Below are positions 1,177-63,936 of a stretch of DNA of 64,000 nt, piece after piece. Origin of the DNA: Escherichia phage phi92. Each line of letters opens with the position of its first letter. The stretch's first letter is position 1. The notes under the pieces were generated by a model, which made no database searches, was not told where the DNA came from, and saw nothing but the letters and a program-made list of their open reading frames with translations. Location of the stretch: sequence record NC_023693.1, one strand, 5' to 3'. A program made the translations under genes and the position numbers.

Positions 1177-1587
1177 TTAGAATTCAGAATCATCATCTCG
1201 TGATGGATCATGTTCATTTCCGAAGTCTTCCATTTTGATATGAGAGCTACCCCAACCTGTAAAATCTTCTTCTCCAAAGTGCAAAATATCTACACCTTGA
1301 TAGATTCGCTTATATTTATAGTCCTGTCGAACTGGGAAAGTATACAATGTAGTATTTGCAAACACCACACGTCGATTGTTGTTACTACGAATATTAACAC
1401 CACGTTCTACTGTATAATGTCCATCGGTAGACATACCAAGCATTACTAATGCTGCTCGCAATGTAGTGTTATGATACTCGTGAGGAATTTTTCCTCCGTG
1501 TTTTTTAGCCATTTCTTTCCAGATCGGTGTAGCCTTAATGGTAGACATACTTACGGTCGCCCAAATGGTTGTATTAATTAGTGACAT
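1177..1587 (-). CDS. hypothetical protein (136 aa), acidic C-terminus
   Basis: ORF in co-directional array; ends DPSRDDDSEF; no recognisable family. Confidence 0.4.
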   Translation of the reverse strand: MSLINTTIWATVSMSTIKATPIWKEMAKKHGGKIPHEYHNTTLRAALVMLGMSTDGHYTVERGVNIRSNNNRRVVFANTTLYTFPVRQDYKYKRIYQGVDILHFGEEDFTGWGSSHIKMEDFGNEHDPSRDDDSEF

Positions 1588-60982: not shown

Positions 60983-60985
60983 ACA

Positions 60986-61010
60986 AAAAGGAGCCATTAG
61001 GCTCCTTTTC
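60986..61010. terminator. bidirectional terminator hairpin (copy 1 of repeated hairpin)
   Basis: AAAAGGAGCC-ATTA-GGCTCCTTTT between convergent genes. Confidence 0.65.
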
Positions 61011-61017
61011 TTTTATC

Positions 61018-61449
61018 TTAATCAGTGAAAATTACGCTTACATCTTCTTTAGAGAAGAGTTTATGATCTTCACCTTTTGTCTCAAGAGTTTCATACAGAT
61101 TAAGAAGTTCTGAAACGTCTTTCTCTACCAGTTTCTTCAATGTTGCAATTTTCTGTTTGCGACTCTTAATACGTTCAGCTACAACCTTACGCTGGTATCC
61201 GGCAGTACGATAACCTGAGAAAGTTACACCAGTGAGACTTGCAGTTACAGGATCGTAGTGACGTTCAATCTGAAATTTATTAAAAGGTACAGCGTCATCA
61301 CGAATAATCTTACCGCCATTACTTACTTGACGAAGACCAGTAACTTGCTCCAGTCGTGCCATAGAAATCTTTGGAGACAGACCAGAGTCTAGGTTCATAC
61401 CATTGTTAATCAGTGCTTTCAGGGTGATTTTGCTGTTCAGTGTACTCAT
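61018..61449 (-). CDS. hypothetical protein (143 aa)
   Basis: ORF downstream of methyltransferase gene on the same strand. Confidence 0.4.
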   Translation of the reverse strand: MSTLNSKITLKALINNGMNLDSGLSPKISMARLEQVTGLRQVSNGGKIIRDDAVPFNKFQIERHYDPVTASLTGVTFSGYRTAGYQRKVVAERIKSRKQKIATLKKLVEKDVSELLNLYETLETKGEDHKLFSKEDVSVIFTD

Positions 61450-62137
61450 TTAGTCGTTCCTCCGCTTGCTTAAAAATATTTACATCGGCTTCACAGCCAA
61501 AGTATTCTCTACCTGTTAAAAGTGCCGCAACTTGTGTTGTTGCACTTCCAGAGAAGAAGTCTAAGACTACATCTCCTTCGTTGGTGTGTATATTAATAAG
61601 GTCACAAAACAAAGTCAAGTGTTTTTGTGTTGGATGAAAACGATCTGCTCCTTGATAGATAGGATACTCAAACACACCCTTATGGTAGGAAGCATTGAAG
61701 GTTGGCTTCGAACCTTTAACACAAACAATAGCCATCTCTTTAGCGTTACTAAGATAGTTAACACCACTGTTGATGGGTACAGGGTTTGTTTTAATCCATT
61801 CAATAGTACGGAACATACGAAAACCAAGCGGTTCAAGGATTTCACGTAGCTCCTGGATCTTCCAGATATCATACCAAACTATGCAAGTACCACCTTTTCT
61901 AAGCACCCTGTAGGCTTCTTTGAATACTTCTTTAAAGTAAGGAATATCTACAACATCCCAATCACCAAAGTTGTAAGATACACGGAATCTATCCGTATCT
62001 TTTCCAGTCGGCTCTCCAGATTGAAAATTTGTGTCACGAGAAATAGCATATGGTGGGTCAGTAAGAATCAAATCTACACTATTGCTTTCGAGGGTTTGCA
62101 GGTAGTTTAATGCGGTGTTGTTTACAAATTCGCTCAT
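61406..62137 (-). CDS. DNA methyltransferase (amino-methyltransferase, N6-adenine or N4-cytosine)
   Basis: catalytic DPPY (LILTDPPYA) near N-terminus and AdoMet-binding FFSGSATT near C-terminus. Confidence 0.8.
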   Translation of the reverse strand: MSEFVNNTALNYLQTLESNSVDLILTDPPYAISRDTNFQSGEPTGKDTDRFRVSYNFGDWDVVDIPYFKEVFKEAYRVLRKGGTCIVWYDIWKIQELREILEPLGFRMFRTIEWIKTNPVPINSGVNYLSNAKEMAIVCVKGSKPTFNASYHKGVFEYPIYQGADRFHPTQKHLTLFCDLINIHTNEGDVVLDFFSGSATTQVAALLTGREYFGCEADVNIFKQAEERLNEYTEQQNHPESTD

Positions 62138-62175: not shown

Positions 62176-62197
62176 ATATTCACACAATACTTAACTA

Positions 62198-63145
62198 TTA
62201 GAAACAGTGCAGGAAGTTTCGACCATACTGCAAACCAATAGGAGCAAATGGGATATCATCATCGAAATCTTGAACAACAGGTTCTGATTCTTTCGGTGCT
62301 GGCTCTTTCTTCTCTACTTTTTTAGTTTCTTTCTTAACTTCTTGTACTGAGGTAGACATTCCACGGATAGCAGCAGCTACTTTATCAGACAAAGCAAGAA
62401 CTTCACGAGCAGCTTCAATAATCTCTTCTGCCGTTACAGTTTTACCTGTATGATCACGACAAGCGTTAAGAATTGCGTGTCCAACTGAAGCACCAAGATC
62501 ATAGTCAGTCGCAGCAGCGCCACGATCTTTAGCAATTTCTGCTTTCAGAGTAACAGTTGCAGATTGTACCACACCAGCCAAGTCGAAAGCATCACCTTTC
62601 ACACCAGCACGTAGAAGCTCCAGAGCGCCGTTTACAGCGTGTCCTGTTTCAATCCCTACGGTATCACGTTTTTTGTAGTTAGGCTTGCTACCTTCGTTAT
62701 TAGATGGCTTATTTCCACCTTTTGAAGAAGATTGTGCTTGCTGAACACCTTCTGTTGAAAGAACAGTGATTTTACCTTTAGAGGAGTTGTAGTATGTTTT
62801 GCCATTCCATTCGGAAGGTTTAACATCTATAGTTACTTCTACACCTTTTTCGATAGTAATCCACTTATCACCATCTTTAACTTGCAGGTTTTCATGTTCT
62901 GGGTGCAGTTTAACTTCACCTAGGCTAACCCAAACACCTTTATCATCAGCACCAGCACCTTTCTCTTTAATAAGCAGAGATGCTTTGTGAGTTGATTCAA
63001 TTTTCTTATCTGGCTGACCTGCAACCTTAATATAAGAGACTTTCATTTCATCAAACTTATCCAGTTTGACATATTCAACGATACCTTCAGCCCAGAATGC
63101 TTCTTTTTTAGTACGACGGTCGATTTCAGAATTAATTACTGGCAT
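62198..63145 (-). CDS. single-stranded DNA-binding protein-like
   Basis: C-terminal acidic tail DFDDDIPF identical in form to the bacterial SSB tip; Gly/Ser/Asn-rich linker. Confidence 0.55.
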   Translation of the reverse strand: MPVINSEIDRRTKKEAFWAEGIVEYVKLDKFDEMKVSYIKVAGQPDKKIESTHKASLLIKEKGAGADDKGVWVSLGEVKLHPEHENLQVKDGDKWITIEKGVEVTIDVKPSEWNGKTYYNSSKGKITVLSTEGVQQAQSSSKGGNKPSNNEGSKPNYKKRDTVGIETGHAVNGALELLRAGVKGDAFDLAGVVQSATVTLKAEIAKDRGAAATDYDLGASVGHAILNACRDHTGKTVTAEEIIEAAREVLALSDKVAAAIRGMSTSVQEVKKETKKVEKKEPAPKESEPVVQDFDDDIPFAPIGLQYGRNFLHCF

Positions 63146-63161
63146 AAATTCTCCTCTATAA

Positions 63162-63560
63162 TTACATTACTTTAACACAAAACTCTCGTAAAAGAGTAGC
63201 GTCAGTTTCTTCCAACAGGTATTTACCAAGACCAATACCAAATCCTATTTCACCACTTTCGAAATGGAGGATTTGTATCTTTTCTCCACCAAGGTTAATT
63301 ACTTTTGCTTTTCCAGGATTATCCAAAACATCTCGTATTGTATCCTGTAGTAGCATTAGTTCACGTTTTGTGATAGTGGTTTCAGATATCTCTTTGTTTT
63401 CTACTCTCACTGTTAAACGGTTGTATCCACCAAAGAGACATAGTATTTGAATAAAAAAGGTATTATCTTGAGGTTCAACATCTTTTTTAGTTAGCTCAAG
63501 ACGATTAGTTTCTCTACTGTAGAACGTCTCGACTAAGATTTTAGAACGATTATCTGTCAT
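63162..63560 (-). CDS. hypothetical protein (132 aa)
   Basis: ORF only. Confidence 0.35.
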   Translation of the reverse strand: MTDNRSKILVETFYSRETNRLELTKKDVEPQDNTFFIQILCLFGGYNRLTVRVENKEISETTITKRELMLLQDTIRDVLDNPGKAKVINLGGEKIQILHFESGEIGFGIGLGKYLLEETDATLLREFCVKVM

Positions 63561-63603
63561 TCAAGTCCTCATAATAACACATAATTACAATGTTTGTCAA
63601 CAC

Positions 63604-63936
63604 TTAAATTTTAAATTCTTCATTGTTAAATGAATCCAGTGTACGTACTTCTGGTTCTTTGGGAATGAAAACGTCTTTTACAAAGCGGAACATAGGGAAA
63701 CGTTCTGCCATTTTACGGACGTGTGCTTCTTTACCTGTGTATCGGTGATTAATAGTGCAAATATTAGTTTTCAATGCAAATTCAAAATCTGGATGATATA
63801 CATAATTTTGACCATCCCAGTAACACAAGCAAATAGCTACATCAAAGTTCCATACGATTTCACTGCGTACACCTTCTTCCATGATCATAAAGTTAAACTT
63901 AAGATCTTTATAGTATGCTTCAAATACCCATTTCAA
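63604..63936 (-). CDS. hypothetical protein (110 aa)
   Basis: ORF only. Confidence 0.35.
   Translation of the reverse strand: MKWVFEAYYKDLKFNFMIMEEGVRSEIVWNFDVAICLCYWDGQNYVYHPDFEFALKTNICTINHRYTGKEAHVRKMAERFPMFRFVKDVFIPKEPEVRTLDSFNNEEFKI

What the first reader, a model, noticed from the sequence alone, without database searches (positions are those of the whole stretch)
62198..63145. SSB-like protein ending in the host SSB acidic tip
The protein ends DFDDDIPF, the motif bacterial SSB uses to recruit replication and repair partners. A phage protein with this tip could load host enzymes onto phage DNA or compete with host SSB for its partners.
Basis: partly seen in the sequence, partly recalled or inferred. 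Interest (0 to 1): 0.4.

Follow-up and report, generated by a model that had tools for sequence, protein, structure and literature searches.

The report
Phage SSB-like protein with capped tip
This phi92-like E. coli phage gene most likely encodes the phage's own single-stranded-DNA-binding protein, from an uncharacterised family; it copies the host SSB docking motif DFDDDIPF but, unlike most relatives, buries it under a conserved 15-residue extension that should change which partners it can recruit.

Summary
The ORF (62198-63145, minus strand, 315 aa) is real. DFDDDIPF is present but is not the C-terminus: it is residues 293-300, and APIGLQYGRNFLHCF follows.

The window is a Justusliebigvirus (phi92-like, 99% identical to phage EmilieFrey). 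The protein matches no Pfam family and belongs to PHROG 4477 ('unknown function'). AlphaFold predicts four parts:
- a basic linker;
- an orphan four-helix domain that is an internal duplication;
- a disordered tail carrying the tip.

The gene lies in the polymerase-primase/helicase gene block, and no canonical SSB was found in the genome. About 330 family representatives exist, and nearly all end in acidic-[ILV]PF-COOH. It is therefore most likely a non-canonical replicative SSB, and a few GenBank records already annotate it that way.

The extension is the new point.
- It recurs on canonical Pfam SSBs and on two other phage SSB scaffolds.
- It is under purifying selection (pS 0.93 against pN 0.07).
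- It toggles between near-identical phages.
- In relatives it overlaps the start of an HNH homing endonuclease, of which this window keeps a vestige.

Its function is unknown. No paper describing it turned up in my searches.

The parts
62198..63145 (-). CDS of the 315-aa SSB-like protein (homologue of bas61_0038 in phage EmilieFrey), including the TAA stop at 62198-62200
   Evidence: PHROG 4477 E=1.8e-100; no Pfam family at E<=1
62750..63145 (-). Residues 1-132: predicted OB-fold (beta-barrel) domain, the presumed ssDNA-binding module
62666..62749 (-). Residues 133-160: disordered, basic (pI 10.3) Ser/Asn/Lys-rich inter-domain linker
   Evidence: pLDDT 42-65; composition
62354..62665 (-). Residues 161-264: four-helix domain made of two duplicated helical hairpins, each carrying a G-x3-G-H-A motif. 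It is the most conserved part of the family. No known structural relative
62270..62353 (-). Residues 265-292: Lys/Glu/Pro-rich intrinsically disordered linker, analogous to the IDL of bacterial SSB
   Evidence: pLDDT about 50; not conserved in sequence or length across the family
62246..62269 (-). Residues 293-300: DFDDDIPF, identical to the last 8 residues of E. coli SSB (SSB-Ct), but internal in this protein
   Evidence: the only PDB sequence matches of the family profile are SSB C-termini
62201..62245 (-). Residues 301-315: APIGLQYGRNFLHCF, a conserved extension that caps the tip (consensus AP[IV]GL[QM][YFH]-x4-[LIM]-[HNY]-x-[ILMF])
   Evidence: Purifying selection in this reading frame: 5 synonymous and 0 non-synonymous differences against ECO340P2; pS 0.93 and pN 0.07 against PVP-SE1
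62191..62226 (-). Vestige, in an alternative frame, of the 5' end of an HNH homing-endonuclease gene (ATG GTC GAA ACT TCC TGC... = MVETSC..., stop after 11 codons). The intact gene starts at the same place in phage nieznany
62156..62175 (-). Intrinsic-terminator-like hairpin (AAGGAGCC-TAAC-GGCTCCTT followed by TTCTTT) 23 nt after the stop; homologous to the terminator after the gene in ECO340P2
63162..63560 (-). Upstream 132-aa gene of unknown function (phrog_16560), apparently co-transcribed. It is conserved next to the SSB-like gene in Stephanstirmvirinae but not in rV5 or PVP-SE1
63571..63600 (-). Sigma-70-like promoter (TTGACA, 18 nt spacer, TG, TATTAT; 11 of 12 matches) upstream of the two-gene unit
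   Evidence: consensus match only

Best explanation
The gene encodes the phage's own replicative single-stranded-DNA-binding protein. It belongs to an uncharacterised, non-canonical family (PHROG 4477). It works like bacterial SSB but is not a sequence-level member of the bacterial SSB family.

Inferred mechanism:
- The N-terminal OB fold binds ssDNA at the phage fork.
- The duplicated four-helix domain probably mediates self-association or cooperative binding.
- A flexible linker presents a copy of the host SSB-Ct (DFDDDIPF) as a docking peptide for replication and repair enzymes.

In this phage the docking peptide is followed by a selected 15-residue extension. The IPF motif therefore lacks the free carboxylate that canonical partners anchor. 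My preferred reading is that the extension caps or retargets the tip. It would reduce engagement of the ordinary host SSB interactome and add a second short hydrophobic motif for a different partner, most likely a host-encoded one.

The extension was probably brought in, or spread, by recombination at the conserved tip codons, linked to an HNH homing endonuclease that nests its start codon inside the extension in related phages.

Shown here: the sequence, the predicted folds, the genomic context, the distribution and the selection. Inferred: ssDNA binding, oligomerisation, partner recruitment and the effect of the cap.
For: - Fold: a confident AF2 model (mean pLDDT 81.7; both domains >88-90) with OB-type neighbours.
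- Architecture: OB domain, then linker, then acidic-IPF tip. About 330 family representatives exist, and nearly all end in acidic-[ILV]PF-COOH.
- Context: same strand, about 2.7 kb downstream of the DNA polymerase gene and about 4.8 kb downstream of the primase/helicase gene. Distant relatives (29-32% identity) lie beside DnaB-like helicase plus PolA, or RNR, ThyX and ligase.
- No other SSB: none is annotated across EmilieFrey coordinates 23.6-146.7 kb, and phmmer finds no canonical or Vibrio-type SSB homologue among all ORFs.
- Independent annotators already label orthologues as SSB.
- The extension is real and selected. Its synonymous sites are near saturation while the peptide is conserved.
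- The extension recurs on four unrelated scaffolds: Pfam PF00436 SSBs, the phrog_7364 and phrog_44 SSBs, and PHROG 4477.
- Free carboxylate: an arginine anchors the SSB-Ct carboxyl end in RecO (PMC3152348), and the carboxylate contributes to binding in the DnaG pocket (PMC5872125).
- HEG link.
Against: - There is no sequence-level relationship to any characterised SSB: Pfam gives nothing, and hhalign of the OB domain against canonical SSB gives probability 0.06%.
- The most conserved domain is the helical one, whose function is unknown. Its two invariant G-x3-G-H-A motifs could mark a binding or catalytic site unrelated to oligomerisation.
- Nearly identical phages exist with and without the extension (ECO340P2 and SKA64), so the extension is not essential for replication.
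- AF2 gives no structure for the tail (pLDDT about 50), and no partner was identified.
- No biochemical data exist.
Confidence: 0.68

Rival explanations
1. The extension is a C-terminal degron or a pro-peptide. Either host proteases (ClpXP, ClpAP, Lon or Tsp) recognise the hydrophobic end (...LHCF, ...IYAL, ...YALYA, ...HAI) and keep mobile-element SSB levels low, or a protease removes the extension and unmasks a functional IPF-COOH tip at the right time.
For: The extensions always end in non-polar residues, and several resemble the ssrA end, e.g. ...YALYA against ...YALAA (the ssrA comparison is from my own knowledge). Perfect conservation of DFDDDIPF directly before the extension fits a tip that becomes functional after cleavage. 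The extension sits on mobile-element copies of SSB: an accessory ssb copy is found in roughly 5-8% of complete E. coli genomes, mostly on the chromosome, and such copies could be toxic if over-abundant.
Against: The N-terminal half of the extension (A-P-[IV]-G-L-Q-Y) is at least as conserved as its end, which a simple C-terminal degron does not need. No protease site or adaptor motif was identified. A lytic phage needs large amounts of SSB.
Confidence: 0.2
2. The protein is not a general SSB. It is an OB-fold adaptor or decoy whose main job is to present the SSB-Ct, either to titrate host SSB partners or to tether one of them to a phage complex through the conserved helical domain.
For: The helical domain and the tip are more conserved than the OB domain. 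Some family members have only about 70-80 residues before the helical domain. The tip is identical to the host's.
Against: The phage encodes its own polymerase, primase/helicase, ligase and exonucleases but has no other SSB candidate. The family sits in replication and nucleotide-metabolism modules in distant phages too. In this phage the tip is capped, which makes it a poor decoy.
Confidence: 0.12
3. The extension has no function of its own. It is read-through sequence left behind when a homing endonuclease cassette inserted at, and was later deleted from, the 3' end of the gene.
For: The HNH gene starts inside the extension in nieznany, rV5 and contig L016. ECO340P2 and this window carry deletion remnants of it. 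The extension is present or absent in near-identical phages.
Against: Strong purifying selection acts in the SSB frame, including in lineages that have lost the endonuclease: 5-6 synonymous and 0 non-synonymous differences, and pS 0.93 against pN 0.07. The two differences that fall in the overlap are non-synonymous in the endonuclease frame. The same peptide motif is found on canonical SSBs that have no endonuclease downstream (0 of 5 loci inspected), and on 72 of the 120 closest relatives of P0099.
Confidence: 0.07

Closest known systems
Bacterial and phage canonical SSB (Pfam PF00436; E. coli SSB, PDB 1kaw/1eqq)
   Same: Predicted OB fold, disordered linker, and the identical C-terminal-type motif DFDDDIPF. 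Role in a replication module. Many phage PF00436 SSBs carry the same post-IPF extension.
   Different: No detectable sequence homology of the OB domain. An extra basic linker and a duplicated four-helix domain are inserted between the OB fold and the tail. The oligomeric state is unknown. In this phage the tip is internal.
RPA32 / STN1 type OB subunits (PDB 2pi2, 4joi, 8sok)
Phage T7 gp2.5 and HK620 SSB (non-host-like phage SSBs with functional C-terminal tails)
   Same: A phage-encoded SSB whose acidic C-terminal tail ending in Phe mediates partner binding. For HK620 SSB the last six residues (NDYPPF) are needed for Sak4 stimulation (PMC5928155). The T7 gp2.5 acidic tail binds T7 replisome proteins (PMC13402713).
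   Different: Those tails are terminal and have diverged from the host motif. Here the host motif is copied exactly and then capped. No Pfam or PHROG match links this protein to gp2.5-type families.
Free-standing HNH homing endonucleases of large lytic phages (phrog_2340 / phrog_1035; T4 seg/mob-type intronless homing)
   Same: In relatives an HNH endonuclease gene sits immediately 3' of this conserved gene, is patchily distributed, and leaves deletion remnants.
   Different: Only a 36-nt vestige remains in this window. Cleavage specificity and homing were not tested. An overlap of the endonuclease start with a selected peptide extension of the neighbouring gene is unusual.

Membership tests
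Canonical SSB family (Pfam PF00436) | Sequence match to the SSB OB-domain profile | tested here: not met
   hmmscan against Pfam at E<=1 returns 0 families. hhalign of the family OB profile against an alignment of about 120 canonical SSBs gives probability 0.06%. The PDB profile search matches only the C-terminal tip.
Canonical SSB family (Pfam PF00436) | OB-fold ssDNA-binding domain | tested here: met
Canonical SSB family (Pfam PF00436) | Intrinsically disordered linker followed by an acidic tip ending in a free ...D-[IVL]-P-F-COOH | tested here: not met
   The linker and DFDDDIPF are present, but 15 residues follow the Phe in this protein. The feature is met by most other members of the PHROG 4477 family.
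Canonical SSB family (Pfam PF00436) | Homotetramer (or dimer of double-OB chains) and cooperative ssDNA binding | not testable with these tools
   Only monomer predictions were possible.
PHROG 4477 (phage protein family, function unknown) | Significant match to the family HMM | tested here: met
   E=1.8e-100, 337.7 bits. The best stretch covers residues 141-300, and the profile ends at residue 300. rV5 gp209 matches the full-length profile at E=4.8e-174.
Other phage SSB families (T4 gp32, T7 gp2.5-like, SSB_1 PF22657, phrog_44, phrog_7364) | Sequence match to the family model | tested here: not met
   No Pfam hit. The only PHROG SSB hit, phrog_18154 at E=3.4e-4, covers residues 254-300, which is the tail only.
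'Capped-tip' SSBs (proposed class: SSB-Ct followed by AP[IV]GL[QM][YFH]...) | A conserved 14-16-residue extension immediately after ...IPF | tested here: met
   APIGLQYGRNFLHCF aligns with the extensions of mEp235 SSB, the pCVMN1543 SSB, Vibrio phage K437b SSB, rV5 gp209, PVP-SE1 gp39, P0098 and P0099. Residues G, L and Y are invariant.
HNH homing endonuclease cassette | An intact endonuclease ORF adjacent to the target gene | tested here: not met
   Only an 11-codon vestige (MVETSCTVSNS*) remains at 62191-62226. Intact genes are present in nieznany, rV5, nepoznato and L016.

The most novel reading that the evidence does not exclude
The post-IPF extension defines an unrecognised class of 'capped' SSBs specific to mobile elements. 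By converting the host-type SSB-Ct from a terminal into an internal motif and adding a second conserved motif (GLQY...h-H-x-h), phages, prophages and plasmids would uncouple their SSB from the host SSB interactome (ExoI, RecQ, RecJ, PriA, chi and others). They would redirect it to a different, still unknown host factor, possibly to protect mobile-element ssDNA or to evade or inhibit a host surveillance pathway. The cap would spread horizontally between unrelated ssb genes by recombination at the conserved tip codons, helped by a homing endonuclease that nests in it.
Probability: 0.3. Interest if true: 0.72.

Novelty: new variant of a known kind. Interest (0 to 1): 0.5.

Why it matters
The SSB C-terminal tip is the hub that organises bacterial replication, repair and recombination, and current structural work holds that its free terminal Phe carboxylate is part of the recognition code.

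Two things matter here. First, the likely replicative SSB of the phi92/phAPEC8/rV5/PVP-SE1 group of large E. coli, Salmonella and Klebsiella phages, which are widely used in therapy collections, belongs to a family with no Pfam model and with a new helical domain. Most records still annotate it as hypothetical. Second, a sizeable set of phage, prophage and plasmid SSBs, on at least four unrelated scaffolds, carries a selected cap on that tip. An accessory ssb copy related to one capped example is present in roughly 5-8% of complete E. coli genomes.

If the cap blocks or retargets partner binding, that would reveal how mobile elements separate their ssDNA metabolism from the host's. It would also give a natural reagent for dissecting SSB-Ct recognition. 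The natural near-isogenic pairs with and without the cap (ECO340P2 or nieznany against SKA64 or phAPEC8) make this directly testable.

Tried and rejected
- Pfam scan of the protein: nothing.
- PDB sequence profile search: only the tip matches SSB C-termini, including chimeric constructs that carry the SSB-Ct tag.
- Profile-profile comparison of the OB domain with canonical SSB: no signal. Membership of PF00436 is rejected.
- Fold search of the isolated helical domain: only generic helical bundles and designed repeats. No functional assignment is possible. The sigma-factor and terpene-synthase hits are rejected as non-specific.
- Searching the 5.8-billion-protein set with the tail profile returned only short fragments, apparently because of a length filter, so it could not be used to census N-terminal scaffolds.
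- Literature searches found nothing on the extension or on this family: 'GLQY'+SSB, 'DDIPFAP', phi92+SSB, phAPEC8+SSB, and phage-encoded SSB with host SSB.
- I first read the sequence after the stop in SKA64 as a decayed extension. I dropped this because a second lineage without the extension shares the same 3' UTR, so that allele is a conserved state of its own.
- A conserved upstream partner gene: ORF132 is conserved only within Stephanstirmvirinae and has no detectable similarity to the equivalently placed genes of rV5 and PVP-SE1. Rejected as a general partner.
- Beta-clamp (QL[SD]LF) and PIP-box readings of the extension were checked by eye against the alignments. They do not fit the conserved positions.
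- Retron-Eco8 sensing of phage SSB depends on the OB fold and not on the C-tail (PMC13402713), so it does not explain the cap.

Full report
**Observation.** The ORF at 62198-63145 on the minus strand is real and encodes 315 aa. A GAGGAG ribosome-binding site lies 7 nt upstream of the ATG (read from the sequence). DFDDDIPF occupies residues 293-300. An exact 8-mer match is expected about 5e-6 times in this window by chance, and the motif is conserved across the family. The motif itself is therefore meaningful.

**What the window is.** The region is 98.7-99% identical to more than 50 Justusliebigvirus genomes (phi92-like, Stephanstirmvirinae, about 147 kb), with Bas61 EmilieFrey the closest. There the gene is bas61_0038, 'hypothetical protein'. 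It lies on the same strand as, and downstream of, the DNA polymerase (bas61_0042) and primase/helicase (bas61_0044) genes, and it is followed by a Dam-like methyltransferase. A strong sigma-70-like promoter match (11 of 12) lies upstream of the preceding 132-aa gene, and an intrinsic-terminator hairpin lies 23 nt after the stop. This suggests a two-gene unit.

**Family.** Pfam gives no hit, even at E<=1. PHROGs places the protein in phrog_4477, function unknown, at E=1.8e-100, and that profile ends exactly at residue 300. A word-indexed search found 99 homologues. An exhaustive profile search of 1.84 billion cluster representatives found 333 at E<=1e-3 and 226 at E<=1e-10, so this is a modest, phage-restricted family. 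Nearly all members end in an acidic run followed by [ILV]PF (occasionally PW) as the true C-terminus. The family therefore has the bacterial SSB-type tip as a hallmark. Longer members of about 400 aa (rV5 gp209, PVP-SE1 gp39) have an extra beta-rich segment between the two domains.

**Structure.**
- AlphaFold2 on a 45-sequence alignment gave mean pLDDT 81.7.
- The model has a beta-domain at residues 1-130 (pLDDT about 88-95), a disordered basic linker at 133-160, a four-helix domain at 163-264 (pLDDT >90) and a disordered tail from 265 to 315 (pLDDT about 50).
- Foldseek ranked STN1, RPA32, MCM OB domains, PrgE and lactococcal phage p2 SSB highest, but none reached E<1e-3.
- Profile-profile comparison of the OB region with canonical SSB found nothing, probability 0.06%.
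- My conclusion is that this is an OB fold with no close solved relative and is not a PF00436 member.
- The helical domain modelled alone (pLDDT 89.8) matched only generic helical bundles.
- That domain is an internal duplication of a roughly 54-residue helical hairpin (hhalign probability 94%, E 1.4e-7). It carries the family's invariant residues in two G-x3-G-H-A motifs.

**Is it the phage's SSB?**
- No SSB is annotated across EmilieFrey coordinates 23.6-146.7 kb.
- phmmer with canonical and Vibrio-type SSB OB domains found nothing among all ORFs of 40 aa or more in the window plus those loci. The annotation of EmilieFrey 1-23.6 kb was not read, and I assume without checking that the window covers that stretch.
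- The phage nevertheless encodes a polymerase, primase/helicase, UvrD-like helicase, ligase, exonucleases and recombination proteins.
- Distant family members (29-32% identity) also sit next to DnaB-like helicase plus PolA, or next to RNR, ThyX and ligase.
- Several GenBank or RefSeq records already call orthologues 'SSB' or 'putative SSB': ESCO32, Mt1B1_P17, phAPEC8_ev052, EF1-1, REC, KP2025 and JLBYU50.
- I found no paper that characterises the family.
- I therefore accept 'SSB-like' with about 0.7 confidence. It is a functional analogue, not a member of the canonical family.

**The extension.**
- About 20 of the 99 homologues carry a conserved 14-17-residue extension directly after IPF, and so do all Justusliebigvirus sampled. 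The consensus is AP[IV]GL[QM][YFH]-x4-[LIM]-[HNY]-x-[ILMF], with G, L and Y invariant.
- Among diverse family representatives it is rare, about 6 of 139.
- The same extension occurs on canonical PF00436 SSBs: lambdoid phage mEp235, a Salmonella plasmid, P0099 and Vibrio phages. It also occurs on two other phage SSB scaffolds, phrog_7364 (P0098) and phrog_44 (Vibrio phage K437b).
- It is present on 72 of the 120 closest relatives of P0099. That sample is biased, because the query itself carries the extension.
- An mEp235-type ssb gene is present in 273-412 of 5,426 complete E. coli genomes, on 455 chromosomal and 6 plasmid places. I take it to be a prophage-borne accessory copy, since the housekeeping ssb would be in every genome. 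I did not inspect the C-termini of those copies.

**Selection on the extension.** Codon analysis shows purifying selection in the SSB frame. Against ECO340P2 there are 5 synonymous and 0 non-synonymous differences. Against PVP-SE1, pS is 0.93 and pN is 0.07. The extension is therefore translated and selected. AF2 gives it no structure.

**Why it matters mechanistically.** In SSB-Ct complexes the terminal carboxylate is anchored by a basic residue, for example RecO Arg132 (PMC3152348). In DnaG the carboxylate also contributes to binding (PMC5872125). An internal IPF should therefore bind canonical partners less well or differently.

**Toggling and the homing endonuclease.**
- Within Phapecoctavirus, proteins that are nearly identical up to IPF exist with the extension (ECO340P2, nieznany, Mt1B1_P17) and without it (SKA64, phAPEC8, tuntematon).
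- In nieznany, rV5 and a metagenomic contig, an HNH endonuclease gene (phrog_2340/1035) starts at an ATG inside the extension codons, giving MVETSCIASKVCFKCG....
- ECO340P2 is the same locus with a roughly 430-nt internal deletion of that gene. It keeps the gene's first 52 nt and last 20 nt or so.
- The window keeps the MVETSC vestige (62191-62226), a decayed remnant and the homologous terminator.
- nepoznato has a related endonuclease directly after an allele without the extension (DFDDNIPF*).
- Extension-bearing SSBs elsewhere had no endonuclease downstream, 0 of 5 loci.
- My reading is that the extension is a functional peptide in its own right, and that in these large myoviruses it has travelled with, or been invaded by, a free-standing homing endonuclease that uses the conserved 3' end of the gene as its landing site.

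**How it most likely works.** ssDNA binding by the OB fold and self-association through the helical repeat are both inferred. The tethered host-type docking motif and the change in its accessibility or specificity caused by the cap are also inferred.

| Reading of the extension | Probability |
|---|---|
| Capping or retargeting of the tip | about 0.4 |
| Degron or pro-peptide | about 0.2 |
| Private docking site for a mobile-element partner (disfavoured, because near-isogenic phages differ only in the cap) | about 0.15 |
| No function (disfavoured) | below 0.1 |

**Verdict.** The finding is real but was misdescribed. The SSB assignment is ordinary in kind: a non-canonical phage SSB family, partly anticipated by database annotation. 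The capped tip and its link to a homing endonuclease are undescribed as far as my searches reach, and they can be tested directly.

Noticed in passing
window 62191-62226 (-); L018:2405-2899, L008:3544-4167, L016:2444-2872, L019:2385-2816: A free-standing HNH endonuclease (phrog_2340/1035) nests its start codon inside the extension codons of the SSB-like gene in nieznany, rV5 and a metagenomic contig. ECO340P2 and this window retain only deletion remnants. nepoznato has a related endonuclease right after an allele without the extension, whose tip is altered (DFDDNIPF). This suggests a homing site at the tip-stop junction.
   Followed up: partly
L006:3078-3584 (mEp235 SSB), L009:3048-3584, L007:3048-3584, L020:1409-1933, L021:1240-1779: The same post-IPF extension occurs on canonical and non-canonical SSBs of temperate phages, Vibrio phages and a Salmonella plasmid, often in Erf/exo recombination modules. 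An mEp235-type accessory ssb copy is present in about 5-8% of complete E. coli genomes. I found no description of it in the searched literature.
   Followed up: partly
window 63604-64000 (-), continuing beyond the window end (bas61_0040 in L001:14605-15219): The gene two positions upstream is a small nucleotidyltransferase. It gives PHROG 'nucleotidyltransferase', a weak Pfam PolyA_pol head-domain match, and precomputed Pfam Gad2 (Gabija anti-defence 2) hits on its orthologues in related contigs. It may be an anti-defence gene sitting inside the replication block.
   Followed up: no
window 63162-63560 (-): A 132-aa protein of unknown function (phrog_16560) is apparently co-transcribed with the SSB-like gene. 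It is conserved in this position in Stephanstirmvirinae, and unrelated small genes (phrog_7310) take its place in rV5 and PVP-SE1.
   Followed up: partly
window 62354-62665 (-): The helical domain is an internal duplication with two invariant G-x3-G-H-A motifs (H169, H223). It has no structural relative in the PDB and could be a metal-binding or ligand-binding site rather than a simple oligomerisation module.
   Followed up: partly
window 61406-62137 (-) and 61018-61449 (-): A Dam-like N6-adenine methyltransferase (Pfam N6_N4_Mtase, E=3e-30) follows the SSB-like gene. Its 3' end overlaps the next ORF (143 aa, phrog_20244, unknown function) by 44 nt. A bidirectional terminator-like hairpin lies at 60985-61010, between this leftward block and the rightward tail-fibre genes.
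   Followed up: no
phage database records MG065639, MG065645, MG065656, MG065689, MG065646: Records labelled 'Campylobacter phage' with host C. jejuni are 98.7% identical to E. coli Justusliebigvirus (and one matches an rV5-like phage). The host labels look doubtful, for example from contaminating coliphages in the lysates.
   Followed up: no
window 1177-1587 (-): A 136-aa ORF next to the thymidylate synthase and RNR genes ends in an acidic tail with a terminal Phe (...DPSRDDDSEF). This is another possible acidic-tail docking peptide in the same phage.
   Followed up: no
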